From Raja brachyura (lineage: Eukaryota): a stretch of DNA of 64,000 nt. Below, piece after piece: positions 31,558-63,973 of this stretch; the stretch's first letter is position 1, and each line of letters opens with the position of its first letter. The notes under the pieces are model-generated. The model worked only from the letters and a program-made list of their open reading frames with translations, was not told the DNA's origin and did not search any database. The stretch spans positions 21,018,001-21,082,000 of the forward strand of contig OY740792.1 of assembly GCA_963514005.1 (NCBI GenBank), given 5' to 3'. A program made the translations under genes and the position numbers.

Positions 31558-31629
31558 CTATAAGGGATTAAAAAAAACAAAATGCACACCTGTGTCTTTC
31601 ACTCAAGTAATACTAACAATAACTACCTG

Positions 31630-32364: not shown

Positions 32365-32457
32365 GATACGAAAAGGGTTCTTCTTCTTCTTCTTTCGTGT
32401 GGCGTGCACAGCCTAAAGTTGTTGGACAACTTGTTCTATTTGATACGAAAAGGGTTC
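32365..32457 (-). mobile_element. 61-bp retroposon 3' stub with 16-bp TSD
   Basis: gatacgaaaagggttc at 32365-32380 and 32442-32457 flanks an insert that ends in (GAA)n on the minus strand. Confidence 0.85.
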
Positions 32458-33650
32458 GTTGGCACTGAATGAATTGTGGGGGGAGAACATTCAAGGTTGC
32501 GGGCGGATGGAGAACAAGCGTCCAGTCCAGGACAATAGTGCAACGACCATGTTGCCCTAGCGCTTCCCAACAATGGCTGTTTCCCAGCATCAGGTCCCAG
32601 TTTTTCTCCAGTCCACTAAAAAGAGTATTGCACGGGAAATTGCATCCTTCAGCACACTCAATGTAGAGTTCAAGTTAGGGACATAAAGAAAACTCATGCT
32701 CAGAAATGCCTGTTCAAAATTTCAGAAATAAATGAGGCGATGTTGAAAAATGCCATTACAATATTTTTTTCAATCAATTTTGCATTGTACAGCAATAAGA
32801 AAAGTGAGTTGTTTAACTGAATTTCCAAACATACAATTTTATAATTGAGACAGGTAAAGTAGCCTTTTAAGCGGCTGTCGTAAATTAATTTATGCCTCCA
32901 AGGAAAAAATATATAGCTAACCTTGGAAAATTACTTAGTTAATAGCAGGGCAGTAGGAAGGCCCAAATTCCACCTGTTACACTTCTGACACTTTTACCTC
33001 CAGAGAGGAAAAGCTTAGAGATGTCTTAATTGATTATGCATTTCTTCAAAATTAAGCTTCACAAACACCAATCGGATCATGTAATGTTTTACTGAGGTAT
33101 AAGCAAGAAAAGGTGCAAATTCCAAGATAATATACCTTTGTTATACATAAGCAATATGCAATTGTCTCAAATTCAATACTCATGCTATATGACCGAGCAC
33201 AGCTTATGCAAACATTGAAATTTGAAGTTTATTACAAATTAATTAAATTCCACAATGATATATGAAAATGGCTCCATGCAGGGCAAAAATCGCACCTCAG
33301 CTTTACGTTTATCAAAATTTATGAAACTGGAGGAACCTATCCATGTATCCAAGACAAAATACTTTCACTCTGTCATTGAATGAAACAAATAATATTTTTG
33401 AAACATCATCTACTGCAAACAATCTCTCGTCTAGCTAAATTGGTTTGTTCTAAATATTTTAAACCAAAATAAAATCTGTGTGTGTCTTGCATATAATAGA
33501 AGTGAATTATTCTGCTTTAGCAACGACCTCAACCTCAAGCATGAAAACAAGCATATGTTACTTTTCTTTATGCAAGATGTGGCAAATGAAATGAGTGTAT
33601 TTTTCAGAACAAGACATGTGAGTTGTGACATATTACAGGCAACCAATTAC

Positions 33651-33734
33651 CTGTGATCTCCTTGTCTTCTTTTTTACCAAGCTCAGGAGTTGAACTGAAC
33701 GTGTGAGAAGTTTCAGAATTTGTTGGTATAGGGG
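33651..33734 (-). CDS. Repeat exon, 84 nt, phase 1-1: APIPTNSETSHTFSSTPELGKKEDKEIT
   Basis: Acceptor ttctctttgtttcttctag|, donor cag|gtaatt. Homologous to exon 43392 (TSH.F..TP...EDK..T). Confidence 0.85.
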
Positions 33735-34301
33735 CTAGAAGAAACAAAGAGAATCCTTTGTATCTTTGCTATTTTGTTAACTTACCTTCTCTGTAATGTG
33801 ATGTTACCCTTTTGTGAAATAAATAAATTAATGGCTCCAAACTTATCTGCGACAAATTTATTCACACAATAATCTATTGGCAATTGCATGCTTTATAATC
33901 TTGCAATCCACAAATAATTGACTAAATGGTCTGAAATCTGATGATTTCCTATATCTTTACGACATAAGAGACCACTCAGCCCATTGAGTCCACGCCAGTT
34001 CCAGAATAATCTCATCAGTGACTTCCCACACATTTTCCAGTAAGGTCCTTCCCACCTTATGAATGCCAGACATATGTACAGCTGCCACGTATGAACAAGC
34101 ATTTGGGAGAATAGTGGTATGGATTTGATAGCTGCTGCAAAGTTGCAGGTATCTTCCAGGTGAGAGAACTCAATGTTTGTGGCCCTTTTTCCGACTTGTG
34201 AACGGTTTGGGTTTCGACTGTTCTCAGGAATGGAACCCTGGAGATGACCTGCATACTCTTTCACATACCCATGAACTCTCTTTATTCTCCTGCCACCCAA
34301 C

Positions 34302-34772
34302 TAGAAACATAGAAACATAGAAAAATAGGTGCAGGAGTAGGCCATTCGGCCCGTCGAGCCTGCACCGCCATTCAATGTGATCATGGCTGATCATCCAACT
34401 CAATATCCCGTACCTGCCTTCTCTCCATACCCCCTGATCCCTTTAGTCATAAGTGCCACATCTAACGCCCTCTTAAATATAGCCAATGAACTGGCCTCAA
34501 CTACCTTCTGTGGCAGAGAATTCCAGAGACTCACCACTCTCCGTGTAAAGAATGTTTTCCTCATCTCGGTCCTAAAGGAATTCCCCCTTATCCTTAGACT
34601 GTGACCCCTTGTTCTGGACTCCCCCAACATCGGGAATAATCTTCCAGCATCTAGCTTGTCCAACCCCTTAAGAATTTTGTAAGTTTCTATAAGATCCCCC
34701 CTCAATCTTCTAAATTCCAGTGAGTACAAGCCGAGTCTATCCAATCTTTCCTCATATGAAAGTCCTGACATC
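34302..34772 (-). mobile_element. CR1/HER1-type LINE 3' end
   Basis: ORF 34400..34771 with a (TTTCTATG)n tail. Near-identical to 427..899. Confidence 0.95.
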
Positions 34773-35479
34773 TACATTGGGGGTAGTTAACAGTGGTCAA
34801 TTAAATACCAACCAGCATGTCCTTAGAATTAGGATGTGGGAACTTTGCTGGCATCCCTGACCTAAAAGTAGCTGAAAAGGACATACACCAACTAGAAAAC
34901 AAATTGTTCTCGGACATTGGGTGAATCCCAGCAGAGGTTCTAAATTCAGCAGAAAGAGATCTCTGTAACTCATTCACAAGTTCATCTCCCATATCTAGCG
35001 AGAGATCTCAGAGAACCGCAAATGTGCCAATCTTCAATTAAACAGACACAACTTATTTCAGCAAACACACAGGAGTTTCTCTAATGTCTGCCACAGGGAA
35101 AGTCTTCACCAGGGCCTTCCCCAACTGCCTTGCCCCTATGACAATAGAGCAACAATCCAAAATCACAAAGTGAATTCCTTTTGCCTAAATACACAACAGA
35201 CATAACCTTCACCTCCTGTCAACTTCAAAGCAAATGAAGGGAAACGCATCAATAACTATATGTGTAAATACAAGGAACTGCAGATGCTGGAATCTTGCAT
35301 AGAACACAAAGTGCTGGAGTGACTCAGGCAGCATCACTGGTGTACATGGATAGGTGACGTTTCAGGTAAGCACCCTGCTTTTATAACCTCTCAAAATTAT
35401 TCTGACTGTCAATTGGGACGCACTGAATATCATTTTATTCAAATTTAGCTTAACAAGAAATTAATCTCCATCTTATTCT

Positions 35480-36190
35480 TCTTGTTCTTCTTCATGATGG
35501 CATGTAAGCCATGATCCTGATCAGCAGGTCACAACATACATAATCCCTGTAAAATGACATTGAGAAAGATTGTATAATTGGCCCAATATTTTTGCTCAAT
35601 CTTCCTCACTGCAGTGCTGCCCTTCACTTCCAACAAGCTCTTGCTGTCATTGTTCTAATTTATAAGCCAAATGAAACACTTCAAATATTGCCTCTGCTTT
35701 AGAAACAACATTGCCCCAGCTGGACTTCTCAATCGATGCTTGCAAATACATATATTCAAGGTCCAAATCATTGTTGCCTTGTCCTCTGTAGCATATTGTT
35801 AATATCTGCAAAGCAAAAGTTCTCCACCAATCTTCCCCATGGTGTAACATAGCCCTCTGAAGGATACAATAGTCTATGTCAAGGCCCTGAAAAGGACAGA
35901 CCACTTACTGTACCTGAGAACCATTCTCAATGAAGGTAGACATCAATTATGCCTTAAATTCACCAGGACAACCTTAGGCCACCCGAATAAAAGTATGTTT
36001 GAAGATAACAAAGTCAAAACTAGCACAAAGTGCATTACCAGCAGACAACAGGTGTAAGAGCAAACTACGGTATCTCCTATCAACTATCTATGGCAGAGTC
36101 AACAGCTCCCACACTGGCCTCTGTTGCCACCCCAGACCTACAGAAATCTACGGGACATCCTCAATCCTGAAGAACTGTCTAAGAGGAAAG
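35480..36190. mobile_element. Degenerate RTE-like LINE fragments
   Basis: Remnants resembling the RTE ORF C-terminus (35900-36190) and an oppositely oriented piece with an (AAG)n-like tail near 35475. Highly decayed. Confidence 0.4.
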
Positions 36191-36439
36191 AGAACAATTA
36201 TTAGTCAAACCATCATTCAGTTCTGTATCATATATATTCTTGTGTTCATATTTTTGATATCAAGTCAATTTGTAGAATTGGCACTACATCACAGTTTAAC
36301 GCAAATACCTTTGAATTCCTGGTCTTCTGTGTTACCACGTTCAGATATAGGGGATTGATCAAATACATGAGTAGTGCCAGAGTTTGTCAGGTTACGGTCT
36401 GCAAGGGACAACATAGAAACCAAATACAAACGTCACATT

Positions 36440-43391: not shown

Positions 43392-43481
43392 CTGTGAATT
43401 TCTTGTCTTCTATGTGGTCAATCTCAGAAACAGGGGTTGGAATAAACACATGTGAAGTGTCAGAGATTGGCAGTTTATGGT
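43392..43481 (-). CDS. Repeat exon, 90 nt, phase 1-1: DHKLPISDTSHVFIPTPVSEIDHIEDKKFT
   Basis: Acceptor tttctttgtcatcctttacag|, donor cag|gtacta. Prototype short repeat. Confidence 0.88.
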
Positions 43482-44081
43482 CTGTAAAGGATGACAAAGA
43501 AACCAAATACAAATCTTGTGTCTTTACCCAGTAGTGTAATAACCTGCCTATTTTGGCATCTGAAACATTTGTGACTGTTTTTGTATTGGATCAATATGTT
43601 TATTTCAATATAGCCAATGAATTGATAAGAAATCTGAATGTTTTATCTCCAACAAAAGCTGTGGACCACCGATGATATTCCTGGTACATATTATTATAGA
43701 CAGTTATTCTATCTGATTTCTTGCACTAGTTTTGAACTTAAACCAAACTGGTCTTTTATATTTCATACATTATTCACCCTAAAGACCACTTGTTAATGAT
43801 TCCATAATATCTCATGCACATCAGCTTTGCCATAGTTAAAATGCTCTGCTGCAGCAGTTTAATTTAATATGGTCAAATATAAATAATTACCAAGCAAACT
43901 TCAAGCAAATTGATGTGGATAATTCTATCAAATTAATTGTATAAATGTACTTAAATTGTTGGACACAACAGCTAATAGAAAAAAGATCATGCAAATGCAA
44001 AAAGGTGAATGTGCATTAAATTTCTTCCATGGTCAGTATTTACAGCACTTATTATTTAGAGCCTGATAGCTTTTTGAATAC

Positions 44082-44162
44082 CTGTCTGTTGTTTCTCTCC
44101 TGCATTATAAACATGGGTTGGATTAGACAATTTTGCAGTCTTAGATGTTGAGAGTTCATGGT
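44082..44162 (-). CDS. Repeat exon, 81 nt, phase 1-1: DHELSTSKTAKLSNPTHVYNAGEKQQT
   Basis: Acceptor tttgttatttgttacag|, donor cag|gtattc. The DHELSTS start is shared with the 144-nt exons. Confidence 0.85.
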
Positions 44163-44459
44163 CTGTAACAAATAACAAATATACCAAATGAAATAAAGCA
44201 AGTGAAAAGCATGCAAGGGTGGTTGTGTGCACTTTTATAAATGTAGTGGCTATTGCAAAAGAATAAAGAAGCTTCCATGTAAAATTCTCCCAGTCCTCTC
44301 AGAGGAGAGATTTTATTCCAATCCAAATATCAAAACTTAGAAATACAGCTTTTGTTAGAAAAAAATGGATGTAATGGAGTCAGAGTTCTACAGCATAGCG
44401 ACACCCAAAACTTGACATCATGTGAGGTGAAGGGCCTGTTCCTGTGCTGGACTGTTCTA

Positions 44460-45650
44460 CGTTTGTAGTCAGTGTCTCAGCCAATGAAGACAAGCATGCC
44501 AAATGTCTTCTTCACCACCCTATATGTTAATGTCACCATTTTCAGTGAACTATGAATTTACATTCCAAGGTTTCTCTGTATATCAACACCCCCTGCTTCT
44601 TATTCTATATATTGTGCCATTATTTGACATCCCAAAATACATTCCCTCACAAGTGTCTTGATTAAATTCCACCTATCCACACAACTTTCTAGCTGATCTA
44701 TTCCTCTGGACCTTTAGACAAACTTATCTTTTGATATGCCTCCAAGTTAATGTCATCAATAAACTTACTAATCAGAAAACTTACATTCTCATCCACATAA
44801 TTCTCATCCAGTTATAGATGATAAACAACAAGGTCCCAATACTGATCCCCAATGTACACCATTGATTACTGACTTCCAATCAGAAAAACAACCCTCCACC
44901 ATCACCAAGCCAAATTTGGTTCCAATTTGTCAACACATATCAAATCCAACGTGCTTTATTCTTCCAAGCCATCCTAACATGTGGGACAAAAGCCTTTCAA
45001 CAGTTTGTGTATGTCATATATTCCCTACCTTCGTAGTTACCTCAAATAAACCCAAATAAATGTACAAGACAGGATTTCCCCTGCACAAAACCAAGCTGAC
45101 TCCTCGACTCCTCATACTCAGTCCCTAACTTTCCAAATGGGCATAAATCCTGCCCCATGAATTTTTTCTTCTATTACAGAAGTAAGGTCTGAGTTTCCTG
45201 GCTTAACCTTACAGTCTTTCTCGAAAAAGGGAATGACATTTGCTATCCTCCAGTTTTCTGGAACGTCATTCAAGGCTAGCAAAGATACACAACTCTCCTT
45301 GGAGCCCCAGCAAACACCTCCACTGCTCTTAATGTGATCTAAGAATATAATCCTATCAGGCCCAGGGCATTTAACTGACTTAATATGTTCCAAAATCCCC
45401 TTCCACATATAAACGTTACAAAATATCAACATATTCCTCCACTAACTCCTCTCTCTCCATCGTCTACATCTTGCTCAAGGTGAATACCGATGAGAAGTAT
45501 TCAATTAGGAACCCACTCATATCCTCTGGCTCTGCATGTAGATTTCTCAGAGAGATCACATTCTTTCGGAGTGCTCCTTTACTTTGAACGGTAAAGGTTT
45601 GAGGATTCACTGTAGTCCTGCTTGTTAAGGCCATTTCATGTCTCTTTTTT
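44460..45650 (-). mobile_element. Old CR1 LINE
   Basis: ORF 45118..45432 (KCPGPD...VPENWRIANVIPFFEK) and downstream RT remnants. Confidence 0.8.
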
Positions 45651-46669
45651 GACCTCCTAATTTGTTTTTTAATTTAAGATATATCATTGAGCGTTACATC
45701 AGAAATGAAGTAACCTTGTGCATGAATGACATACAATTCACATCATGAAGTGGGACTATCAACTTGCCCATCCAACCCTCAACTGGCTCGGTGGTATTAC
45801 TATAGTTGTACAAAATGACCAGAAAATTGCCTTTTTTTTCCTTACAGGGGAAAATATACATTTTCAGTTGCACAATGTTGAAAACACTCAGCAGCATATT
45901 AATTTCGTCTCTCTGTTATAGGACATTAATGTATCACCATTGCTGAATTGGCCCTATTATGACATCCTAAGGCCAAGCAATGAATTCAAATGTAACCATG
46001 CATAAAATATTCAAAATTATCTTTCAAATAATATCAAATCACAATAATGTTGTGGGCGACTGTACTGGTTGCAGGTTGAATACAACTTCCAACAACATTA
46101 ATACCAGTAATATCAAGATAATCGGCCGCGCGCTGTTAAATACAACCAGCGACTAATATTTTTGCAGACAATCAATAACAGCAACAAAAGTTAAACTTTC
46201 TCCTTGATGTTCACGACAATTACATTAGAAATATTCAAAGCAGAAGTGTACATGATTTAAATGGCAATAGACAATTCATGCATTAAGAAGTTGCATTACC
46301 ATCCAGCACACTACAACAAATCAGACACAACAATTCGACAAACACTTTATAGCCAAGCGCAGCATCTAAATTTCTCCAAATAAGATGTGCTGCACAAATA
46401 ATCCAACAGAGATAAGCAGAATCACTAATCCCATGAAATGAAGAGCAGTGTCATCATTTCATATAGTTTTTGTTACAAGTTGCAAGCAAGACAGTGCACG
46501 GACTTGTCAAATACATTCAGACACAAGTGAATTATACCACCATTCAATTATAAAATCATCAAATGGCATTTTAGAATGTGTCCTAAATTCATGTTACATA
46601 AGGGCATATTGCCATATACAGTTACTAGGTACTGATTTCCTAGATTCACAAAGGCACAAATATTGCCAG

Positions 46670-46765
46670 AATGTCAGCAAATCTTAGCAAATTCAGATTA
46701 GGAGATTCCAATCATCATCTCAGGAATGTCAATGACATTGACGAGGTTCAACTGGGCTGATTCAA
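46670..46765 (-). pseudogene. Heavily decayed relic of the repeat exon
   Basis: Flanked by the array's intron motifs (aaggcacaaatattgccagaa; ggaatccagatacaaaat) with internal atcttagca and ggaatgtca, but no intact splice sites. Confidence 0.5.
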
Positions 46766-47350
46766 GGGGTTAAGACGGAATCCAGATACAAAATCCTCAT
46801 GGTATTTTGATGAACATAGCAGTAGTACCAGGTATCATCACATTGTATCAATATACTACATTTGTTTTCATAATTTTAATATTGAAGTTAACCATGAATT
46901 AATATTAGTTTTGATATACTAAACTACGTTTAATAGAAAATGGTGACCAATTAATCGGTATTATTCGAGAAGAGTCATGTATGAGTAAAATAATGAAAAG
47001 TATGTGCTATATAATTTCCAATGCATGAAATCCAATCATTATTCAATAAACTTCTCAACAAAATAGTTCTCATCAGCAGACAGCACATTTACATCTAAGC
47101 CATGTGTAAACTCAATGAAATATGCACAATAACCCAACAAAAAGCAAAATACATAAGACAAAGACATAGAATTACAACGAATTGCTTACGTCACATGGGC
47201 CGTGATACAACATTGTAAGCTGCAAGCAATATAGTGCAATGGCAACCATAACTCAATTAACTGTAAAAGCGTGTGGTAGCACTTGCTGCATGTGCCCTAA
47301 ATTTCCATCATTATAACACAAGCTTAGGTCATAAATATTGTTAAAGGTAC

Positions 47351-47494
47351 CTGTACCTTCAGTATCACTTATCTTAGCATGCTCAGGTTCTGGGATTGGA
47401 TTGATCACATTAGCAATATCAGTGACTGGCAGCCCACCGTCAGGCATTAAAGTGAACACGTTAGTAGTAGCTTCTGAGATTTTCACCTCATGGT
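47351..47494 (-). CDS. Repeat exon, 144 nt: DHEVKISEATTNVFTLMPDGGLPVTDIANVINPIPEPEHAKISDTEGT
   Basis: Acceptor cttccttcttatctcttcag|, donor cag|gtacct. Overlaps ORF 47253..47486. Confidence 0.9.
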
Positions 47495-48027
47495 CTGAAG
47501 AGATAAGAAGGAAGCTGGATACAAAATACTGTTTTTCTCAGGTTTATTATTAGTTATTCTCATGATTAATATTGAATTAAAGGACTATTATGTACCATGT
47601 TCGCAAGTTTATTCTTATTCATTTCATATAATTAATTTGTCTAGATAGCGTGAAACCATGAACTAACCATTGTATAATACACCGTTTACCTGATTCATTC
47701 AATATTAACCAGCAATAGTATAACACAAAACAAATTTACTATCCAATAAACATTATAGCCATGAGCAGTTGATTAACAATTTTGTCCAAATAATCTGAAA
47801 AATATTTTAAAAATTGCTTAATTCCAAGACGCATTTAGTGAATTTCACAGTTAATTTAAACTGTGGCACGACTATCAAATGCACTTCACAAACCTGTAAC
47901 CTAAATACCAATAAAAAGGCATGGCCTAACTTTCTGCTACAGGTACATTTGTACAAACCTCAGTTTGTGTATATCAATTATTCCATTGCACAGTCCACGC
48001 TCAAGGCACAAATAGGGTCAGCCACAC

Positions 48028-48158
48028 CTGGAACCTTAGCATCCAAACTTAGAATTTCAGGACTCAATATGGTATTGCACACATTAGTAATATTAATGGC
48101 ATTTTTCAACCTGGGATATTACTAATATTAGGAGTGTCAGAGGTTGTCACCTTGTGAG
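48028..48158 (-). pseudogene. Pseudo-exon of the repeat family
   Basis: Acceptor position reads cttcAA instead of cAG. HKVTTSDTPNISNIPG is followed by TGA and a frameshift. Donor cag|gtgtgg. Confidence 0.7.
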
Positions 48159-48479
48159 TTGAAGGGATAAGAAAGAAAATAGTGTTTTGGACAAAAAAAT
48201 TGTGACAATGTTTTACAATTTGTCTTATTGTATATTCAAGTGGAACTATGAATAATATAAAAGTATCAAATTAACATGTTCACCACTTAAATTTAATGGT
48301 AATAAAAACATTACAGTGATATTGCCACTTCATGTCAATCATTGTATGGCAAATAATCATCACAAATTCATGGCCATGATTGGCTGACAATGTGCTGCCC
48401 AGCTAGAGTACAATGAGAATAAAATAATCACAATGCATGAAATTCCAGGAAACATCAATACTCAAAGCACAAATGCTTA

Positions 48480-48604
48480 TTCTCTGTTATCTGAGCACAA
48501 TCAGGTTCTAAACTTAATTATATTAGATGTATCAGTGACGAAGAAATCATGGTCTGGCTCTAAAATGACCAAATTTGTTGTGTCAGATGTTGGCATTTCA
48601 CAGT
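48480..48604 (-). pseudogene. Pseudo-exon of the repeat family
   Basis: Acceptor ctgtcag| is intact. DCEMPTSDTTNLVILEPDHDFFVTDTSNII is followed by a frameshift to TGA, and the donor region is deleted. Confidence 0.75.
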
Positions 48605-48819
48605 CTGACAGAATGCAAAGGAAGCATGATATACTGTAAATAAAGTTATCCTGAAGGATCTAACCCTGAAAATTACTTCTCATCCTTTATCCGGACTTAT
48701 GCACCATCTGGATTTGTTTTAAAGTGATACAAAAATGATAAAACACAGCATGCGTTGACAAATATCTTTCAACGAGCAGAGAAGAGCAGATTTTTGCCCC
48801 ATATCTCTCTCATCTATGT

Positions 48820-49510
48820 ACCAATGTACGTTCACACTCACTTCTTCTAACCTCATCTACTGCATTTTGGTGTTCCTGATGTGGCATCCTGTACATCAAC
48901 GAGACCAAGTGTATACTTGGCAACCATTTCGCTGAACACTTGCACTCAGTCCGCCATGGACTACTGGATGTCCCGGTTGCAAACTATTTTAACTCCCCTT
49001 CCCATTCCCACACTGGCCTCTTTGTCTTGGGCCTCCTCCATTGCCAGAGTGAGGCCACACACAAACTGGAGGAACAGCACCCCATATTCCCATTTGGGTA
49101 ATTTACAATCCAACAGTATGAACATTGAATTCTCCAATTTATGGTAACCTCTAACTAACTTACCCCAAACATCTCCCACTGCTCCACCCCTGTGCCCCAC
49201 CTGGACTCCCACCTATATGTACCCTCCCCCCTCCACCTACTTTTCTCCCTCTGGCTTCACATTCCACAACTCTTCAAACCTGTCTCACATCTGTTCTTAT
49301 CTCTGGCCTTTGTTCCAAATCCCTATTGCCTATGTCGCCCTATTGCCTCTCCCCTTTTCCAACCGCCATCTCCCCCTCTACAATCAGTCTGAAAAGTCCT
49401 GAAACAAAACGTCGGCTAACCATGTTTTCCAGTGCTGCTGCCTGACCTGCTGAGTTACTCCAGCACTTTGTGTCCTTTTGTGTATTAACCAACATCTGCA
49501 GTTCTTTGTT
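48820..49510 (+). mobile_element. Penelope-like element 3' part (GIY-YIG remnant)
   Basis: Decayed TSSNLIYCI..CGILYI.ETK..LGNHFAEHLHSV, plus the terminal motif ...gctgagttactccagcactttgtgt. Confidence 0.85.
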
Positions 49511-49514
49511 GCTA

Positions 49515-49935
49515 CCTATCCTAGTGTCTTTCAAACACTGTTATCGTACCTGGCTCAACTACCTCCTCTGGCAGCTCGTTCCATGTACCCACCACCCTCT
49601 CCGAGTGGAAAACGTCACCCCTCAGTTTCCTATTAAATGTTGTTCCTCTCTCCTTGAACCTATATCCTCTGGTTCTTGATTCCCTGAACCTGGCTAAAAG
49701 ATTGTGCATCCACACTTTCTATTCCCCTCATAATGTTATACGCCTCATCCCTCATCCTCCTACACTCCAATGAATAAAGTCCCAGTCTGTCCAACCTTTC
49801 CCTATTTTCAGGTCCTCAAGACCTGGCAATATCTTTGTAAATCTGCTTTGCATTTTTTCCAGCTTAATGACATCCTTCCTATTGCATGTCACTGAAACTG
49901 AACACAGTACTCCAATGAAGCGTCACCAACGTCTC
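49515..49935 (-). mobile_element. CR1 3' fragment
   Basis: ORF 49521..49715 reads ESRTRGYRFK...FHSERVVGTWNELPEEVVE. Confidence 0.8.
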
Positions 49936-49939
49936 CAAT

Positions 49940-50480
49940 TACTCATCAATATCTTGGTTTGACAACTGCTTAGCCCCAAGACCGCAGGAAGTAGCAGAGA
50001 TTTGTGCATGCAGCCCAGTCAATCATGCAAGCACAACTTCCCCTTCCCATCACCACCATTGCCTCCATCTACCACACGCTGCCTCAGGAAAGCAGCCAAT
50101 ATAATTAACGTCCACCTACATCCACTTCATTCTCTCTTCTTCCCTCTCCCGTTGGGGAGATGAAACAAAAGATTTAAAGCATGTAACACCAGATTCTAGA
50201 ACAGCACTATCCCTGTTATTATCCCTTCCTTGAAGAGACCTTGAAAAAATGAAGCAGCGCTGCTGATCTCCCCATCTACCTCATGGTGGCTCTTGCACTT
50301 TCTATTGTCACCACTTTCTCTGTAGCTGCAACAATATGTTTTGCACTATGTTTCCTTTCTCTTTTAGCATTACTTATACACATTTATGACTTGATTGTAC
50401 TTGTGTATAGTATAATTTGACTGGTTAGTATGCAAAATAACGTTTTTTACTATATCTCTGTACATGTGATAATACACATG
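49940..50480 (+). mobile_element. Rex1-like LINE 3' fragment
   Basis: Remnant cgctgcctcaggaaagcagccaatataatt...ctcttctcccctctcccgttgggg (RCLRKAANII...LFSPLP.G). Confidence 0.6.
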
Positions 50481-50682
50481 ATTTCAAGAGTAAGAAGCTC
50501 TATGTTGCTCATTTCATACTGTTTGTGACATTGAATAAGTCGCATGCATGTTAATTTCTTAACTATCAAAAATACTTTGCACCCATTGAACAGTAAGGCA
50601 GCAATTCTACAAGTAAGGTAATTTCTTGTCACCTTATAACAAACCTCAACACGAAAAGCATACATATGTTTGGCAGAAGTAC

Positions 50683-50823
50683 CTTTAACTTCAGTATCTT
50701 TTACATTAGCACGTTCAGGTTCTGGGATTGGATTGATCGTATTAGGAGTATCAGTGAGTGGCAGCACATAGTTCGGCATTAATGTGACCACAAACGGAAT
50801 ATCTGAGCTTGGCACCTCATCAT
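50683..50823 (-). CDS. Repeat exon, 141 nt: DDEVPSSDIPFVVTLMPNYVLPLTDTPNTINPIPEPERANVKDTEVK
   Basis: Acceptor ccttccttcttatctctttag|, donor aag|gtactt. Confidence 0.9.
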
Positions 50824-50973
50824 CTAAAGAGATAAGAAGGAAGGCAGAGAGAAAATGTGTAGTCTCACAAGGAAATTATACGTGTTGTTTAAATGAACAG
50901 TTTTGAATTCCTGCAATAAAAGGAATATAATTTAATTAATAATGATACTTTGCACACAATTGTCAAATAGATA

Positions 50974-52601
50974 CAGTGTCCTCCATAATGTTTGGGACAA
51001 AGATCCATCATTTATCTATTTGCCACTGTACTCCACAATTTGAGATTTGTAATAGAAAATATCACATGTGGTTAAAGTGCACATTGTCAGATTTTATTTA
51101 AGGCAATTTTTATACATTATGGTTTCACCATGTAGAAATTATAGTTGTATTTATACATAGTTCCCCCCCATTTCAGGGCACCATAATGCTTTGGACACAT
51201 GAGTTCACAGGCGTTTGTAATTGCTCAGGTGTGTTTAACTGCCTCCTTAATGCAGGTATAAGAGAGCTCTCAGCACCTAGTCTTTCCATCACCTTCGGAA
51301 ACTTTTACTGCTGTTTATCAACATGAGGACCAAAGTTGTGCCAATGAAAGTCAAATAAGCCATTATGAGACTGAGAAACAAGCATAAAACTGTTAGAGAA
51401 ATCAGCCAAACCTTAGGCTTACCAAAATCAACTGTTTGGAACATCATTAATAAGAAAGAGAGCACTGGTGAGCTTACTACTCGCAAAGGGACTGGCAGGC
51501 TAAGGAAGAACTCCACAACTGTTCCTCTCTATAATAATGAAAAATCCCCAAACACCTGTCCGACAGATCAAAAACACTCTTAAGGAGTCAGGTGTGGATT
51601 GTCAATGACCACTGTCGGCAGAAGACTTCATGAACAGAAATACAGAGGCTACACTGCAAGATACAAACCACAGGTTAGCCGCAAAAATAGGATGGCCAGG
51701 TAAATGTTTGCCAAGAAGTACTTAAAAGAGCAACCACAGTTCTGAAAAAAGGTCTTGTGGACAGATGAGATGAAGATGAAATTATATCAGAGTGATGGCA
51801 AGAACAAAGTATGGAGGACAGAAGGAACTGTCCAAGATCCAAAGCATACCACCTTATCTGTGAAACACGGTGCTGGGGGTGTTATAGCCTGGGCATGTAT
51901 GGCTGCTGAAGGTACTGGCTCAATTATCTTCATTGATGATACATCTGCTGATGATAGTAGCATAATTAATTCTGAAGTGTATATACACATCCTACCTGCT
52001 CAAGTTCAAACAAATCCCTCAATACTCATTGGCCGGTGGTTCATTCTACAGCAAGACAATGATCCCAAACATACTGTTAAAGCAACAAAGGAGTTTTTCA
52101 AACCTAAAAAAGGTCAATTCTTGAGTGGCCGTCAATCACCCGATCTGAACCCAATTATGCATGCCTTTTATATGCTGAAGAGAAAACTGAAGGGGACTAG
52201 CCCCCAAAACAAGCATAAGCTAAAGATGGATGCAATTAAGCCCTGGCTGAGAATCACCAGAGAAGACACCCAGCAACTGGTGATGTCCATGAATCGCAGA
52301 CTTCAAGCAGTCATTGCATGCAAAGTCAATGGAACAAAATACTAAGCATGGCTTCTTTCATTTCCATGACATTGCTGTGTCTCAAACATTATGGTGCTCT
52401 GAAATGGGGGGACTATGTATAAACACTGCTTTAATTTCAACATGGTGAAACCAAAACGTATAAAAATGGCCTTTAGTAAAATCTGATAATGTGCACTTTA
52501 TCCACATGTGATTTTTTTTCTATTACAACTCTCAAATTGTTTAGTACAGAGGCAAATAAATAAATGATGGGTCTTTGTCCCAAACATTATGGAGGGCATT
52601 G
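50974..52601 (+). mobile_element. Full-length inactive Tc1-family transposon (IR/DR type)
   Basis: TA TSDs at 50972-73 and 52602-03. TIRs of ~225 bp begin cagtgtcctccataatgtttgggac and contain inner direct repeats. A transposase remnant lies inside. Confidence 0.97.
51323..52345 (+). pseudogene. Tc1 transposase pseudogene
   Basis: HTH region (TVREISQTLGLPKSTVWNII), WTDE, QQDNDPKH and SPDLNPIM (catalytic E replaced). Premature stops and frameshifts. Confidence 0.93.
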
Positions 52602-53388
52602 TATGTCTTACCTATTTAATTTGAAATTATTCACAAAGCATAATATAGCACCAGGAAATCCATGAAGCAGGATTGCTGCCATTTGAGAAACACAATTTTT
52701 CCATCCAGTCGCAATGATTGGTTAGCACAAAACAAAGCCACTATTTCCAATTATGTAAGAATGTTGCCCAAATGATAGAGGCATCCAACACAAAAACAGG
52801 TTTTTATCCTACCAGGTCGACACCAACCATCAAATACTTAACCATACCAATCCCATTTATCAATACTTGATCTCCAACCTTCTATGCTGCCTAGAAACAT
52901 CATATTGCAGCCATCCATTGGATGGATCCACCTCCCCCCCAATATCCTCACTAACCCTCTTACTCCCCCACATTAAACTATTATTATTAAATCCCATCAA
53001 TTAGCACCAGACCCAATTTACCAGTTAATCAACGTTGTTCTGTTACCCAAGACTATTCTCCTTACTGTCAACAAACCTATTTACTCTCATCAGTATTCCG
53101 TTTCTTAACTGTCTTTTTTATCACATGCCTAAGATTCCAACATCAACATCTGATGCAGATAAGCAAAAGATTTATTCATTCAAGGATTGCCTTGTCATGT
53201 CAATTTGACTCAACATTAAACAGGTTATAAACATGAATACTTGCAACTTTAACACAGATTTAACTGTAAAAGCTTGTACAGCATCTGGCCTAAGTTTCTG
53301 GCACTTTTATAGAAACCTCAGCGTGAACTTATTCTTATTTAATCTATTTCTCAATACACACTCAAAGCACAAATGTTATCTAAGGTAC

Positions 53389-53511
53389 CTGCAACTTTAA
53401 TATCTATATCTTCAGACTTGGTTATGGGATTGAGGATATTAGGAATGTCAGTAGCTTGTGGATCAGAGTCTGGGATTAAACTGAACATGTTAGAAGTTGG
53501 CACCTCATGGT
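53389..53511 (-). CDS. Repeat exon, 123 nt: DHEVPTSNMFSLIPDSDPQATDIPNILNPITKSEDIDIKVA
   Basis: Acceptor cttcttcttattccctcag|, donor cag|gtacct. Carries in-frame deletions relative to the 141-nt unit. Confidence 0.88.
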
Positions 53512-54139
53512 CTGAGGGAATAAGAAGAAGCCAGGTACAAATTTTAATCTTGCCCGAAAATGTTTTTACATCATTTTGATGTACACAATTGTATTACTGT
53601 ACATTATTACATTGCAACAACATAGATTAATTAATCGAACTACTATATTACTAAATGTATTCATGTCAAGTGATGAACTGCACTAATTGGTAATACATTT
53701 TTACAGTACCAAACTAATCGAATGTTATGCCTAATTAATCCAAGTTACTCAAAATGATTTAAACAAATGGTGTGACAATAGATAAACCATGCAGTAATAT
53801 TTTTCCACTATGAATAATACTTTTTAACACCACAATACTCAAAAAGAGTAATTAAACAACAGACACTCCATGCAGCAGCAATGTTCATACTACAAAAAAG
53901 TGATTTATCATTTAATAAACATTACAACAGAATAGCTGAGAGCTAGTTGAATTCCATGCAGGTTGTGTATGGATAATCACAGACACTTTGCAGACAAGTA
54001 ATCCAAACAAACATTTAACAGTGTACACATGGAATAGCAGCTTCAGAACGTTGCTTAACAATCTGGTACGTTGGCACAATCCTCTCCCTGCACATGGTTA
54101 TTTATTCTTAAACTCATTTTCAAGACAAAAGTATTGCCA

Positions 54140-54249
54140 TTAGTCTGATTTTGATTTAGGGATTGGATTGATTACAATAGGAATGTTACTAAATACTAGA
54201 TCAGAGCCCAAGTTTAAACTATACAGGGTAGGAGGCACAATGGTTGCCT
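54140..54249 (-). pseudogene. Truncated relic exon: EATIVPPTLYSLNLGSDLVFSNIPIVINPIPKSKSD*
   Basis: The VINPIP motif is retained, but there is an in-frame TAA, no donor and a weak acceptor. Confidence 0.65.
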
Positions 54250-55180
54250 CTATTGACTTTTCATGGACTCTATAATGGTGTAGCATAAACCTCTACATAT
54301 TTTCAAACCATTTGGTACATGGATAGGAAAGACTAATTGACGGAAAGAGGGATATGGGCCAAAAACAGGCAAATTTGTGTCTAGCTTAGCTGGGTCTTAA
54401 ATTCATTTTAGAGTGTCAATGTGTTTTGGATCTTAAATGTAATATAATTATTTTGCAAATGTGTATTGATTTTTTTTAACAAATTCAAAGTGTTGCTGCC
54501 AATTTGCAAATGCCCAACAGATTCAGTCAACAACAGCTGACATATTGACATTAAATAAGCTTTCAAAGACATCCTGTGTGTGCAGTGAGCTGTCTATGCA
54601 CAGACTCAGTTGGTAGTTATGCCAAGGCACTGGGAGCTGAGACTTTGTAAACACTGGGTCAGGGACCATGCTGGAACTGTATAACCCCGGGGCATGTAGC
54701 CAGTGATTTCAGCGCAATAAAAAATGTGCCCCAATTATTGATTAATTCATTCAATAATACGGCAATAAAATCTGATATATATGGAATAATGAGAGAGTTC
54801 ATGAGCAACATACTTTCCACTATGTCACAGCTAATTATTACTTGATACATTTTTCAACAATATTGTCATTGGAGAATGAACAAACACTTCACAGCTACGC
54901 AATCCCTAAACTCAGTAAAATAAGGACATTGACAAAATAACCTAACAAAGGTAAGCATAAAGTACAAATTTTAAGAAATATGAAGTGGATTTCCCTTAAA
55001 CGGTGCCACAACATTAAATGAGCTGCATGCAAGACAGGATGTTGGTATATTTTACATACATGCAATGTGAACACTGATTGCACGGGGATTGTGTGGCATA
55101 GCATTAAAAGCATGCGCGCTAAACTTCTACTGCTTTAGCACATACCTCAACAGCCAAGGAACAAATATTGGCAGAAATAC

Positions 55181-55321
55181 CTGTAACGTCAAAATCTTTT
55201 ATCTTAGCGCGCTCAGTTTCTGGGATTGGATTGATCACATTAGGAGTATCAGAAACCAGAGGGTTTAGGCCTGATATTAAAGTAAGCACTTTAGGAGTGC
55301 GAGAAGTTGAAACCACGTGGT
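55181..55321 (-). CDS. Repeat exon, 141 nt: DHVVSTSRTPKVLTLISGLNPLVSDTPNVINPIPETERAKIKDFDVT
   Basis: Acceptor tgttttttatcccttcag|, donor cag|gtattt. Confidence 0.9.
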
Positions 55322-55902: not shown

Positions 55903-56042
55903 CTGTAACTTTGATATAGCCTGTCTTAATAACTTCAGATTTAGGATTTGGAGTGAACACAATAGGAATGTTTGTGACTGAAAACTCAAAGACTGGAATT
56001 AAATTTAATGCATTAGAATGTCAGAGATCATCACATCCTGAC
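55903..56042 (-). pseudogene. Pseudo-exon (140 nt, acceptor AG>GG, 1-nt deletion)
   Basis: Acceptor position reads cccctcGG. GQDVMISDI then shifts frame into NALNLIPVFEFSVTNIPIVFTPNPKSEVIKTGYIKVT. Donor cag|gtactt is intact. Confidence 0.75.
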
Positions 56043-56647: not shown

Positions 56648-56779
56648 CTGCAACTTCTGTATCTCTCAAACTAGTTCGTTGAGATTCTAGGATTGGATCG
56701 ATCACATGAGTAACCGGCAGCTCATGGTTTAACATTAAAGTAAACACTTTACTAGTGTCCGAGGTTGGCACCACCTGGT
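56648..56779 (-). CDS. Repeat exon, 132 nt: DQVVPTSDTSKVFTLMLNHELPVTHVIDPILESQRTSLRDTEVA
   Basis: Acceptor cttcttccttgtcccgagcag| (GAGCAG tandem), donor cag|gtactt. Confidence 0.87.
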
Positions 56780-57282: not shown

Positions 57283-57429
57283 CTGTTATTTCTGTATCTT
57301 CTATTTTAGTAGTGTCAGACGCGTGGATGGCATTGGGAACATTTGAAATGTCAGTGACAGGTACGTTAATGTCTGAGATTAAACAGAAGATGTTAGGGAT
57401 GTTAGAGGTTGGCAACACAGTCCGCTGTA
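57283..57429 (-). CDS. Repeat exon, 147 nt: VQRTVLPTSNIPNIFCLISDINVPVTDISNVPNAIHASDTTKIEDTEIT
   Basis: Acceptor tcctgcttacttccag|, donor cag|gtattt, open frame. Confidence 0.8.
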
Positions 57430-58202: not shown

Positions 58203-58346
58203 CTGTAACATCTGCCTCTCCTATCTTAGTAGGATCAGGTTCTGGGATTGCATTGATCACACTGGGAATGTCTGTAGCTTGCCGTTCATAGCCAGATATA
58301 AAAGGGAACACTGTAGTTGTGTGAGCAGTTGATAATTCATGGTCTT
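58203..58346 (-). CDS. Repeat exon, 144 nt: EDHELSTAHTTTVFPFISGYERQATDIPSVINAIPEPDPTKIGEADVT
   Basis: Acceptor ccctttcatccttag|, donor cag|gtagtt. Confidence 0.88.
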
Positions 58347-58820
58347 CTAAGGATGAAAGGGAAGCCAAATTACAAAATTCTAAATATCTTCTGATCATAC
58401 ACCTGCGCTAAGTTGTTTCCTATGTGTATTAGCTCATTGAACACTATCGTTATTTAATTATTTATACAGTATAGAACAACGTCCTCCAGCCCATTGAAAT
58501 TATACAAAACAGAGCGATCCCATTAGTCCCATACCACTGTTTTGTCCTTGCAGCAATCACTCACATCGTTGCTAACAATAACGAAGCAAGTTAAGGATAG
58601 ACATCTAAGGGTACAGTATGTTTGTGTTTTCCAGGCTCTTCCATGCCTTACACACAACCAACACAAATATTCGCGTAAATATTTATGTAAAAGCATAACA
58701 TGGCATCTGTGGCACGTGTCCAGACGTTTTTCCTGAATTGTGATAAACCTAAGCATGCACTTTTGATTATTTGCTCCATTGCATATTTCAAACATAGAAT
58801 ACACATATTGTTAGGACTAC

Positions 58821-58964
58821 CTGTAAATTCTGCCTCTCCTATCTTAGCAGGATCAGGTTCTGGGATTGGATTAATCACACTAGGAATGTCTGTGGCTTGC
58901 CGTTCATAGCCAGATATAAAAGAGAACACTGTAGTTGTGCGAGAAGTTGACAATTCATGGTTTT
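58821..58964 (-). CDS. Repeat exon, 144 nt: ENHELSTSRTTTVFSFISGYERQATDIPSVINPIPEPDPAKIGEAEFT
   Basis: Acceptor tttttaatccttag|, donor cag|gtagtc. Confidence 0.88.
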
Positions 58965-59451
58965 CTAAGGATTAAAAAGTAAGCCAAATTATAAAATTAC
59001 AAACATCTTCTGAATGTACACCTGCACTGAGTAGTTTCCTATGTATATTAGCACATTGAACTTTATCATTAGTTAATTATTTAATACAGTATAGAACAAA
59101 ATCATCCAGCTCACTTGAATTATATGAGATCAGAACCTAATAGAGCAATCCCATCAGTCTCATACCACCTCTTATTTCCTTGCAACAGGCTCTCACATTG
59201 TTTCCAACAACAAAGAAGCCAGTTAAGGAAAGGCATCTATGTGTAGAGTATGTTTGTGTTTTCCAGGCTCTTCCATGACTTACACACAACCAATACAAAT
59301 ATTCACATAAATATTCATGTAAAAGCATACCATGTCAACAGTGGCACGTGTCCAGATACTTCTCCTCAATTGTGATAAACATAAGCATGCACTTTTAATT
59401 ATTTGCTCCATGCTTACTTCAAACATAAAAAACACAGATTGTTAGAACTAC

Positions 59452-59595
59452 CTGTAACATCTGTCTCGACTATCTTAGTAGGATCGGATTCGGGGATTGG
59501 ATTGATCACACTGGGAATGTCTGTGGCTTGCCGTTCATAGCCAGATATTAAATTGAACACTTTAGTTGTGTGAGAAGTTGATAATTCATGGTCTT
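59452..59595 (-). CDS. Repeat exon, 144 nt: EDHELSTSHTTKVFNLISGYERQATDIPSVINPIPESDPTKIVETDVT
   Basis: Acceptor cctttttatccttag|, donor cag|gtagtt. Confidence 0.88.
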
Positions 59596-60075
59596 CTAAG
59601 GATAAAAAGGAAGCCAAATTACAACATTCGAAATATCTTCTGAACATAAACCTGCGCTAAGTAGTTTCCTATGTATATTAGCACATTGAACACTACCATT
59701 ACTTAATTATTTAATACAGTACGGAACAAAGTCATCCAGCTCATTTGAACGACACGAGAACCTAATAGAACTATCCCATCAGTCCCATACCCCCTCGTAT
59801 TTCCTTGCAACACTCACTCACATTGTCGTCAACAAGGACGAAGCAAGTTAAGGAAAGACCATAAGTGCACAGTATGTTTGTGTTTTCCAGGCTCTTCCAT
59901 GGGCTTACACACAACCAATCCAGATATTCATATAAATATTCATGTAAAAGCATAATGGCATCTGTGGCACATGTTCACAATTTTTTCCATAAATGTGATA
60001 AACCTAAGCATGCACTTTTGATGATTTGCTCCATTGCTTATTTCAAACATAGAATACACATATTGTTAGGACTAC

Positions 60076-60219
60076 CTGAAAATTCTGCCTCTCCTATCTT
60101 AGCAGGTTCAAGTTCTGGGATTGGTTTGATCACACTGGGAATGTCTGTGGCTTGCCGTTCATAGCCAGATATTAAAGAGAACACTGTAGTTGTGTGAGAA
60201 GTTGACAATTCATGGTCTT
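60076..60219 (-). CDS. Repeat exon, 144 nt: EDHELSTSHTTTVFSLISGYERQATDIPSVIKPIPELEPAKIGEAEFS
   Basis: Acceptor cctttttatccgtag|, donor cag|gtagtc. Confidence 0.88.
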
Positions 60220-60688
60220 CTACGGATAAAAAGGAAGCCAAGTTACAAAATTCTAAGCATCTTCTGAATGTACACCTGCGCTAAGTAGTTCCCTATGAAT
60301 ATTAGCTAATTGAAAATAATCATTACTTAATTATTTAATACAGTAAGGAACAAAGTCATCCAGCTCATTAGCATGATATGAGAACCAAACAGAGCGATCC
60401 CATCAGTCTCATACCGCCTCTTATTTCCTTGCAAGCCTCTCTCACATTGTCGCCAACAATGACGAAGCAAGTTAAGGAAAGACAGCTAAGTGTACACTAT
60501 GCTGTGTATTGCATGCTCTTCCATGACTCACACATAGCCAATACAAATATTCACATAAACACCTAGCATGCCATCTGTGGCACATGTCCAGAATTTTGTC
60601 CTTAATTGTGATAAACCTAAGCATGCACTTTTAATTATTTACTCCATTGCTTATTTCAAACATGGAATACACATATTGTCAGAACTAC

Positions 60689-60832
60689 CTGCAAATTCTG
60701 CCTCTCCTATCTTTGTAGGATCGGCTTCTGGGATTGGTTTGATCACACTGGGAATGTCTGTGGCTTGCCGTTCGTAGCCAGATATTAAAGAGAACACTGT
60801 AGTTGTGTGAGAAGTTGACAATTCATGGTCTT
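60689..60832 (-). CDS. Repeat exon, 144 nt: EDHELSTSHTTTVFSLISGYERQATDIPSVIKPIPEADPTKIGEAEFA
   Basis: Acceptor cctttttatccgtag|, donor cag|gtagtt. Confidence 0.88.
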
Positions 60833-61299
60833 CTACGGATAAAAAGGAAGCCAAGTTACAAAATTCTAAGCATCTTCTGAATGTACACCTGCACCAAGTA
60901 GTTTCCTATGAATATTAGCACATTGTAAATAATCATTACTTAATTATTTAATACAGTAAGGAACAGTCATCCAGCTCATTAGAATTATATGAAAACCAAA
61001 CCGAGCGATCCCATCAGTCTCATACCGCCTCTTATTTCCTTGCAACGCGCGCTCACATTGTCGCAAATAATGAGGAAACAAGTTAAGAAAAGACAGCTAA
61101 GTGTTCACTATGCAGTGTTTTGCATGCTCTTCCATGCTTTACACACAACCAATACAAATATTCACATAAACGCCTAGCATGGCATCTGTGGAACCTGTCC
61201 AGAAATGTTTCCTTAATTGTGATAAACCCAAGCATGCACTTTTAATTATTTACTCCATTGCTTATTTCAAACATGGAATACACGTATTGTTAGAACTAC

Positions 61300-61443
61300 C
61301 TGTAACATCTGCCTCTCCTACATTAGTAGGATCGGGTTCTGGGATTGGATTGATCACATTGGGAAGGTCTGTGGCTTGCCGTTCATAGCCAGATATTAAA
61401 GTGAACACTTTAGTCGTGTGTAAAGTTGATAATTCATGGTCTT
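61300..61443 (-). CDS. Repeat exon, 144 nt: EDHELSTLHTTKVFTLISGYERQATDLPNVINPIPEPDPTNVGEADVT
   Basis: Acceptor cctttttatccttag|, donor cag|gtagtt. Confidence 0.88.
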
Positions 61444-63829: not shown

Positions 63830-63973
63830 CTGAAAATTCTGCCTCTCCTATCTTAGCAGGTTCAAGTTCTGGGATTGGTTTGATCACACTGGGAATGTCT
63901 GTGGCTTGCCGTTCATAGCCAGATATTAAAGAGAACACTGTAGTTGTGTGAGAAGTTGACAATTCATGGTCTT
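63830..63973 (-). CDS. Repeat exon, 144 nt, same sequence as 60076..60219
   Basis: Acceptor cctttttatccgtag|, donor cag|gtagtc. Confidence 0.88.

What the first reader, a model, noticed from the sequence alone, without database searches (positions are those of the whole stretch)
43392..55321. The 47-48 aa exon appears to derive from the 30 aa exon by an internal 17-codon duplication
Seen: short exon 43392 = DHKLPISDTSHVFIPTP (17 aa) + VSEIDHIEDKKFT (13 aa) = 90 nt. Long exon 50683 = DDEVPSSDIPFVVTLMP (17) + NYVLPLTDTPNTINPIP (17) + EPERANVKDTEVK (13) = 141 nt, i.e. 90+51. In relic 48480 the second block still starts DH. Inference: repeat evolution was nested, with an intra-exon duplication first and whole-exon amplification of only the long form afterwards. 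Short and long classes occupy separate parts of the gene, with the boundary between 44162 and ~46670.
Basis: partly seen in the sequence, partly recalled or inferred. Interest (0 to 1): 0.75.

Follow-up and report, generated by a model that had tools for sequence, protein, structure and literature searches.

The report
Doubled-block exon in shark ABI3BP
In a skate's ABI3BP gene, which encodes a tissue-matrix protein, the long repeated exon is the older short exon plus one extra related 17-amino-acid block; all sharks and rays checked have it and the one chimaera checked does not, so it is a neat but ordinary case of repeats forming inside repeats.

Summary
The anatomy is real. The region is the repeat stalk of skate ABI3BP/TARSH (minus strand). 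Long exons are 51+51+39 nt and short exons 51+39 nt. Block 1 resembles block 2 beyond shuffles in 10 of 10 window exons tested (22-29 of 51 nt against about 14). The 17-residue doubling is present in 11 of 11 shark and batoid species and in 0 of 6 Callorhinchus models. So the short form is probably ancestral and the long form arose on the elasmobranch stem; sharks do not have only the short form. Short exons were already a multi-copy family, they flank the long block on both sides, and long exons have reverted to short, e.g. 57283-57372 through an internal acceptor at the block junction. Exon 43392 is not singled out as the parent; an upstream shark short unit matches block 2 plus tail better. 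Whether block 1 is a copy from the same exon or came from another short exon is unresolved: two trees disagree and no AU test rejects either. New case of a known process; interest 0.33.

The parts
63830..63973 (-). Long repeat exon (144 nt; 141 nt with the second AG of a NAGNAG acceptor), recent skate array copy; exon identical to the 60076 copy
58203..61443 (-). Six long repeat exons of the recent tandem array (58203, 58821, 59452, 60076, 60689, 61300; 144/141 nt each), donor spacing 611-631 nt; across all 7 array copies exons are 87-100% and downstream introns 79-97% identical
57283..57372 (-). Secondarily short 90-nt exon (block 2 + tail), opened by a CAG at the block junction; this is the form in the skate gene models
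57373..57429 (-). Former block 1 of that exon, still in frame with its own upstream AG but left out of all 18 skate models examined
   Evidence: 57373-57423 averages 29.2 of 51 nt identity to four block-1 copies against a null of 13.5, p 0.0002
56648..56779 (-). Long repeat exon, 132 nt (9-nt deletion in block 2)
55903..55992 (-). Open 90-nt block 2 + tail behind a junction CAG; upstream block 1 decayed and its acceptor lost. Not in the skate models examined; a short unit lies at the matching place in stingray and manta models
55181..55321 (-). Long repeat exon, 141 nt (51+51+39), CAG at the block junction
54153..54270 (-). Relic long-class exon (approximate ends)
   Evidence: nhmmer E 2.7e-8
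53389..53511 (-). Long repeat exon, 123 nt (internal deletions), CAG at the block junction
50683..50823 (-). Long repeat exon, 141 nt: block 1 50823-50773, block 2 50772-50722, tail 50721-50683
48482..48604 (-). Relic long exon: intact acceptor, block 1 48604-48554, block 2 from 48553, then a stop; no donor seen
48018..48160 (-). Relic long exon, acceptor AG lost and frame broken (approximate ends)
   Evidence: nhmmer E 6e-11
47351..47494 (-). Long repeat exon, 144 nt (138 nt with the nearer donor at 47357, which matches the skate models); last long exon
46680..46758 (-). Weak relic of a long-class exon
   Evidence: nhmmer E 9e-4
44082..44162 (-). Short repeat exon, 81 nt
43392..43481 (-). Short repeat exon, 90 nt: block 43481-43431, tail 43430-43392
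29298..36398 (-). Five further short repeat exons: 36309-36398 (90), 33651-33734 (84), 31465-31557 (93), 30311-30400 (90), 29298-29378 (81)
7655..7714 (-). 60-nt Ser/Thr-rich exon of the same gene
3068..3136 (-). 69-nt exon just before the conserved C-terminal part; the second FN3 and TARSH_C exons lie beyond position 1

Best explanation
These are symmetric phase-1 exons encoding the Ser/Thr/Pro/acid-rich stalk of ABI3BP/TARSH, between its N-terminal FN3 domain and its C-terminal FN3 and TARSH_C domains (shown). The cartilaginous-fish ancestor already had an array of about 30-residue exons (inferred from chimaera). On the elasmobranch stem, one member of the type that still lies just 5' of the long block in sharks (called Sa here) gained a tandem copy of its first 51 nt (inferred). 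The likely route is slippage or unequal crossover between the acceptor's CAG and a CAG at exon position 49-51, which would explain why the second block starts exactly like an exon start (inferred). The new 141-nt exon was amplified with its intron in the middle of the older array, with separate later bursts in skates, stingrays and sharks (shown by near-identical copies). The process also runs backwards: the junction CAG can serve as an acceptor and drop block 1 into the intron, and some shark units look like block 1/block 2 collapses. The likely effect is to lengthen and tune, by exon skipping, a disordered and probably O-glycosylated spacer (inferred; glycosylation not tested).
For: Gene identity: 15 of 17 hits of the exon profile are chondrichthyan proteins with the FN3 and TARSH_C families; the other two are a catshark fragment and an unnamed 91-residue piece. 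Pfam TARSH_C E below 1e-47 in 3 of 3. Block homology above shuffles. Tail homology: 43392 and 36309 tails match long tails at 20.0 and 22.3 of 39 nt against a null of about 12, p at most 0.0006; 30311 does not (p 0.087). Polarity: 17-spacing in 11 of 11 elasmobranch species, 0 of 6 Callorhinchus models at two thresholds. In the 30-column tree (80 rows, LG+G4) block 1 and block 2 form one clade (98/90) with Sa as sister (98/84). Block 1 shares Glu3 with block 2 and Sa (21 of 27, 18 of 24, 2 of 2) against mostly Lys in 3' shorts (13 of 20) and chimaera (8 of 14), and shares Ile16 (17 of 27, 16 of 24, 2 of 2). The end of block 1 is closer to the end of block 2 than to the intron in 5 of 5 exons, by margins of 1 to 6 of 18 nt. 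A junction CAG is present in 5 of 15 copies looked at. Whole-unit skips of 30, 31 and 48 residues among Rhinoraja isoform models match the exon boundaries.
Against: In raw identity, shark block 1 and block 2 are less alike (6.0 of 17) than each is to some short unit: block 2 to Heterodontus Sa 9.1; block 1 to Heterodontus 1132 8.9 and to Callorhinchus 1009 9.5. In window DNA, block 1 to block 2 is 26.0 of 51, below block 1 to 43392 (28.6) and block 2 to 43392 (32.5). The block-only tree (17 columns, 70 rows) puts block 2 with Sa and block 1 with chimaera short units; the duplication constraint is 5.9 log units worse than free and 2.3 worse than the join constraint, and none of six trees is rejected (p-AU 0.32-0.68). 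In the 30-column set the join topology is not rejected either (p-AU 0.094), and block 1 rows lack the 13 tail columns. Ten of 15 junctions lack the CAG. Polarity rests on one holocephalan species; 0 of 96 bony-vertebrate ABI3BP proteins carry a recognisable block, so there is no outer outgroup. Relatives are known to me only as predicted proteins.
Confidence: 0.55

Rival explanations
1. Chimeric join: the long exon arose when an out-of-register crossover or deletion joined the first 51 nt of one short exon to the start of a different short exon (Sa type), using the same CAG microhomology. The blocks would be paralogous exons, not copies made inside one exon. Polarity and later amplification are as in the best explanation.
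For: Each block is closer to a different short unit than to the other block. The unconstrained block-only tree groups block 2 with Sa and block 1 with Callorhinchus 885/921/1009/1048. Block 1 keeps His2 and Thr6 like most short units, while block 2 and Sa share Tyr2, Val6 and Pro15-Ile16-Pro17.
Against: The 30-column tree nests block 1 among block 2 and the join topology is 20 log units worse, though not rejected (p-AU 0.094). Block 1 shares Glu3 and Ile16 with block 2 and Sa. The best-matching short units were picked after seeing the table. The exon order in Heterodontus (Sa, another short, then long) needs extra losses under simple crossover schemes (my inference).
Confidence: 0.35
2. The long form is ancestral in cartilaginous fishes and short exons are collapsed long exons; chimaeras lost the long form.
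For: Long-to-short reversion does happen: window 57283-57372 with its block 1 still upstream, and short units with long-type tails inside shark arrays. Only one holocephalan species was available.
Against: Reverted units keep long-type tails (7.6-8.2 of 13 identity to long tails in the three shark cases), whereas chimaera units score 1.0-4.1 and 3' short units 0.7-5.7. Short units are far more diverged from each other and occur on both sides in sharks, rays and chimaera. It needs loss of every long copy in the chimaera.
Confidence: 0.07
3. The two-block look is a chance effect of low-complexity Ser/Thr/Pro/Asp-rich sequence.
For: With correction for all lags, 10 of 13 long window exons are not significant on their own.
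Against: Composition-matched shuffles are exceeded in 10 of 10 window and 10 of 10 basking-shark units. The short-exon DNA profile hits most long exons at two offsets. A strict 17 then 30-31 spacing recurs in 11 species.
Confidence: 0.01

Closest known systems
ABI3BP / TARSH (Target of Nesh-SH3), vertebrate extracellular-matrix protein
   Same: Same gene: window exons match annotated skate ABI3BP proteins in order (for example 45 of 46 and 29 of 29 residues against Amblyraja); FN3 and TARSH_C domains. Human ABI3BP also has an alternatively spliced disordered middle region (PMC13518942, passage seen).
   Different: The 17+13 and 17+17+13 units are not detectable in 96 bony-vertebrate ABI3BP proteins. 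The skate models examined are 2049-2319 residues against 878-1976 for the bony-vertebrate models listed.
Protein repeat expansion by internal tandem duplication and exon duplication (Bjorklund et al. 2006, PMC1553488; nebulin super-repeats)
   Same: Expansion in the middle of an existing repeat array, with exon-plus-intron units copied; slippage and exon shuffling are both named as routes (passages seen).
   Different: Here the unit itself changed length by a sub-exon event with a dateable origin and repeated reversion; the passages I saw deal with whole Pfam domains.
Tandem cassette-exon arrays in mucin-like stalks (CD45/PTPRC of fishes, CD44 variable exons, titin PEVK) - recalled, not from a call
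   Same: Symmetric phase-1 exons, low-complexity disordered spacer, length tuned by exon skipping.
   Different: Unrelated in sequence as far as tested: the exon profile hit none of them. I recall no two-block derived exon class in them, and did not test this.

Membership tests
ABI3BP/TARSH | C-terminal TARSH_C domain and two FN3 domains | tested here: met
   Met on the orthologous proteins (Pfam PF21731 and PF00041 in 3 of 3). The exons for these domains lie outside the window, so they were not read from it.
ABI3BP/TARSH | Window exons are colinear with annotated ABI3BP proteins | tested here: met
   Of 19 exon definitions tried, 17 match Amblyraja P0018 at 85% or more, at positions rising in gene order; the 147-nt form of 57283 and the 55903 unit do not.
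ABI3BP/TARSH | Secreted matrix protein acting through integrin beta-1 | not testable with these tools
   From PMC6426741 and PMC13518942 passages, for mammals only.
Intra-exon tandem duplication | Two adjacent homologous blocks in register within one exon | tested here: met
Intra-exon tandem duplication | Single-block form present in an outgroup that lacks the double form | tested here: met
   0 of 6 Callorhinchus models, one species
Intra-exon tandem duplication | The two blocks are each other's closest relatives | tested here: inconclusive
   30-column tree yes (98/90); 17-column tree no; AU rejects neither
Intra-exon tandem duplication | Microhomology at the breakpoints | tested here: inconclusive
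   CAG at the block junction in 5 of 15 copies; equally expected under the chimeric join
Tandem exon duplication array | Symmetric-phase exons repeated with homologous introns | tested here: met
   All called exons are multiples of 3, phase 1-1; 7 copies with 79-97% identical downstream introns
Tandem exon duplication array | Units spliced and skipped as whole cassettes | tested here: inconclusive
   Seen in predicted Rhinoraja isoforms; no RNA reads were laid on the window
Mucin-like O-glycosylated stalk | High Ser/Thr/Pro content; dense O-glycosylation | tested here: inconclusive
   Thr 12.5%, Ser 10.0%, Pro 9.3%, Glu+Asp 16.9%, no Cys or Trp in 838 residues; glycosylation not testable here

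The most novel reading that the evidence does not exclude
The long exon is a chimera of two different ancestral exons, fused at the second one's own acceptor. That acceptor survives inside the exon as a latent splice site, so long exons can switch back to short ones by splicing alone and have done so in several lineages. The long exon would then be both an elasmobranch-wide marker and a reversible, splice-tuned length switch in a matrix protein.
Probability: 0.25. Interest if true: 0.5.

Novelty: new member of a known kind. Interest (0 to 1): 0.33.

Why it matters
It gives a dateable case of a repeat unit changing length inside an exon array: absent in the chimaera, present in all sharks and rays checked, amplified separately in each group, and partly reversed by intronisation. 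The long exon is a candidate rare genomic change for Elasmobranchii. It also shows that ABI3BP, whose general function is poorly defined (PMC6426741, passage), has a fast-changing spacer in cartilaginous fishes. The processes themselves are well known and no new function is shown, so the interest is mainly for specialists in exon and repeat evolution.

Tried and rejected
Pfam scan of the 12 long-exon peptides: two weak single-member hits (E 0.039, 0.078), treated as chance. Tandem Repeats Finder does not report the exon array or the 51-nt doubling. My first guesses from memory (CD45, titin PEVK, endomucin) were dropped. The profile search of 1.84 billion representatives gave 9 hits: 8 are ABI3BP proteins or skate-like exon pieces and one (E 4e-4) is an unrelated repeat protein that I left out. 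Sequencing-run search: no RNA holder listed; no reads were laid, so splicing in this animal is unchecked. No whole genome is held, so the 5' part of the gene could not be read. The exon 43392 as direct parent: not singled out. Trees: the 30-column tree used 80 of the units listed, leaving out Hemiscyllium, Rhinoraja and Hemitrygon block 1/2 rows and the Hemitrygon short rows. The 17-column tree used 70 rows, also leaving out Narcine block 1/2 and the three internal short units; a seventh constraint (block 1 with three chimaera units) did not finish. Both trees have very few columns. Paper searches that found nothing on this repeat or its origin: ABI3BP+exons+alternative splicing, ABI3BP/TARSH/shark (32), internal or intra-exon duplication terms (39), ABI3BP+skate+cartilage (40, 0 papers), ABI3BP+fibronectin type III+exons (47), exon duplication+repeat protein+cartilaginous fish+extracellular matrix (55, 0 papers), tandem exon duplication terms (56); I saw listings and abstract openings only, apart from passages of three papers. 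Subscription journals are mostly not covered. Earlier scan notes: nothing by place or sequence, eight unrelated notes by words.
Full report
1. Observation. On the minus strand, 43392-43481 is a 90-nt exon and 50683-50823 a 141-nt exon. A scan for open phase-1 exons plus DNA profiles found 13 long-class exons (123-147 nt, 47351 to 63973), 7 short repeat exons (81-93 nt, 29298 to 44162), two further small exons (7655, 3068) and five degraded or doubtful long-class copies (about 55900, 54160, 48480, 48100, 46680). In relic 48480 block 1 is exactly 51 nt (48604-48554) and block 2 begins Asp-His.

Is the doubling more than chance? Block 1 and block 2 share 22-29 of 51 nt against codon-shuffle means of 12.7-14.8 (p 0.0001-0.016) in 10 of 10 exons tested; seven are near-copies, so this is four independent lineages. 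Without assuming the register, lag 51 was the best self-match in 11 of 13 long exons and 0 of 8 short ones; only 3 of 13 pass p 0.05 alone after correction for all lags. The short-exon profile hits most long exons at two offsets. Tails are homologous too for 43392 and 36309 (p at most 0.0006), not clearly for 30311 (p 0.087).

2. What it is. A profile of 12 long exons hit 17 proteins; 15 are shark or ray proteins carrying FN3 and TARSH_C families, most named ABI3BP or target of Nesh-SH3. Three full-length orthologues carry two FN3 domains and TARSH_C. Window exons match skate proteins at 85-100% and in gene order (17 of 19 definitions against Amblyraja), so the window is a skate ABI3BP gene, cut off at both ends. 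The 22 spliced exons give 838 residues without a stop: Thr 12.5%, Ser 10.0%, Pro 9.3%, Glu 8.8%, Asp 8.1%. Rhinoraja isoform models differ by whole units of 30, 31 and 48 residues and by single residues at unit starts (14 isoforms compared with X1; 15 of 23 cluster members listed). This matches my exon boundaries and shows that the 47 versus 48 difference is mostly a NAGNAG acceptor. These are predicted models; I did not see their RNA support.

3. Outgroups. A 17-column block profile was run over the proteins. Spacings of 16-18 residues between blocks occur in 11 of 11 elasmobranch species (five sharks, six batoids; 2 of 7 up to 19 of 46 spacings) and in 0 of 6 Callorhinchus models at two thresholds (for example 0 of 16 in P0030). 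None of 96 bony-vertebrate ABI3BP proteins has a hit. So sharks have the long form, the chimaera has only the short one, and the simplest reading is one gain on the elasmobranch stem. The block similarity is clearer in sharks (10 of 10 basking-shark units, p at most 0.0084). The polarity rests on one holocephalan species.

4. Short exons were already a family: Callorhinchus P0030 has 17 block hits, including near-identical repeats of a multi-unit cassette, so short exons were amplified too. Short units also lie 5' of the long block in sharks (Heterodontus 786, 816, 846; Cetorhinus 669, 699, 755), which places the long block in the middle of an older array. Short units also lie inside the long block: Cetorhinus 1120, Scyliorhinus 128, Hemiscyllium 1117, Stegostoma 1302 and 1379. 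The three shark cases measured keep long-type tails (7.6-8.2 of 13), so they are reversions. The window has one: 57283-57372 appears as a 30-residue unit in 18 of 18 skate models and 4 of 6 Hemitrygon models, while the 51 nt upstream are still a block 1 (29.2 of 51 nt, null 13.5, p 0.0002). The junction there is CAG after a pyrimidine-rich stretch; 5 of 15 junctions examined end in CAG (57283, 55903, 55181, 53389, relic 48480). Later bursts were lineage-specific: 7 copies in the window at 611-631 nt spacing with 87-100% exon identity, 11-16 copies of that unit in three skates, and 3-4 copies of a different unit in Hemitrygon and Mobula.

5. How the long exon arose. Block 2 plus tail is best matched by the shark short unit just 5' of the long block (Sa: Heterodontus 816, Cetorhinus 755): 8.1-9.1 of 17 in the block and the highest tail BLOSUM scores of any non-reverted short unit (20.5, 24.9), against 4.5-6.6 of 17 for the four 43392 orthologues. 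So 43392 is a paralogue, not the likely parent. For block 1 there are two routes with the same anatomy: a 51-nt tandem copy inside the Sa-type exon, or a join of another short exon's first 51 nt to the Sa-type exon. Both can use the CAG shared by the acceptor and exon position 49-51, which explains why block 2 starts like an exon (inference). For duplication: in a 30-column tree of 80 rows, blocks 1 and 2 are one clade (98/90) with Sa as sister (98/84); block 1 shares Glu3 and Ile16 with block 2 and Sa. For the join: blocks 1 and 2 are less alike (6.0 of 17) than each is to some short unit (8.9-9.5); the 17-column tree of 70 rows puts block 1 with chimaera units and block 2 with Sa; block 1 keeps His2 and Thr6 where block 2 and Sa have Tyr and Val. 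AU tests reject neither (0.094; 0.32-0.68). Exchange between blocks after the event would blur both tests. I put duplication at 0.55, the join at 0.35, a long ancestor at 0.07 and chance at 0.01.

6. Likely function. The exons build a low-complexity spacer between folded ends; symmetric phase lets any unit be added, lost or skipped. In human cells the disordered region of ABI3BP (391-818) is partly spliced out during osteoblast differentiation, and the protein binds integrin beta-1 (PMC13518942, passages; PMC6426741, passages). A length-tuned, probably O-glycosylated spacer is my inference; nothing here shows that the extra block was selected.

7. Relation to what is known. The gene is a known family member. 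Expansion of repeats in the middle of arrays by internal and exon duplication is described (PMC1553488, passages). Seven paper searches found no account of this repeat or its origin; the library lacks most subscription papers. Similar cassette arrays in CD45, CD44 and titin are recalled, not from a call.

8. Limits and verdict. No genome was held and no reads were laid, so the 5' exons, shark and chimaera DNA, and splicing in this animal are unchecked. Observation confirmed; interpretation partly supported; a new member of a known kind; interest 0.33.

Noticed in passing
window 58203-63973, acceptors of the array exons: Tandem NAGNAG acceptors give 144 or 141 nt; Rhinoraja isoform models differ by the matching single residue.
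   Followed up: partly
window about 61510-63420: An insertion of about 1.9 kb interrupts the array (donor spacing 2530 against about 620); a peptide at 62616-62738 looks like LINE reverse transcriptase (label recalled, not tested).
   Followed up: no
window 63830-63973 and 60076-60219: Non-adjacent copies are 100% identical in the exon and 97% in 330 nt of intron: very recent multi-unit duplication, conversion or an assembly effect.
   Followed up: partly
window about 50975-52605: Element of about 1.6 kb with inverted ends and a decayed transposase-like interior, just 5' of exon 50683; resembles Tc1/mariner (seen; label recalled, not tested).
   Followed up: no
window 47351-47494: Two in-frame donors 6 nt apart (47357 and 47351); the skate protein models match the nearer one.
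   Followed up: partly
window 55903-55992: Open 90-nt unit with a junction CAG and a donor, absent from the skate models examined, while a short unit lies at the matching place in stingray and manta models: possibly an unannotated or recently lost exon.
   Followed up: partly
window 7715-29297: A 21.6-kb stretch with no repeat exon found by either profile.
   Followed up: no
P0030 (Callorhinchus) residues about 798-1047: A four-unit cassette is repeated, and several units carry the same 9-residue extension, possibly read-through of a donor in the gene model.
   Followed up: no
P0001 (Stegostoma) residues about 736-1300: Two kinds of long unit alternate, suggesting amplification of a two-exon cassette.
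   Followed up: no
P0025, P0013: ABI3BP orthologues carry misleading source names (mucin-2 in Leucoraja; fibronectin type III domain-containing protein 1-like in Heterodontus).
   Followed up: no
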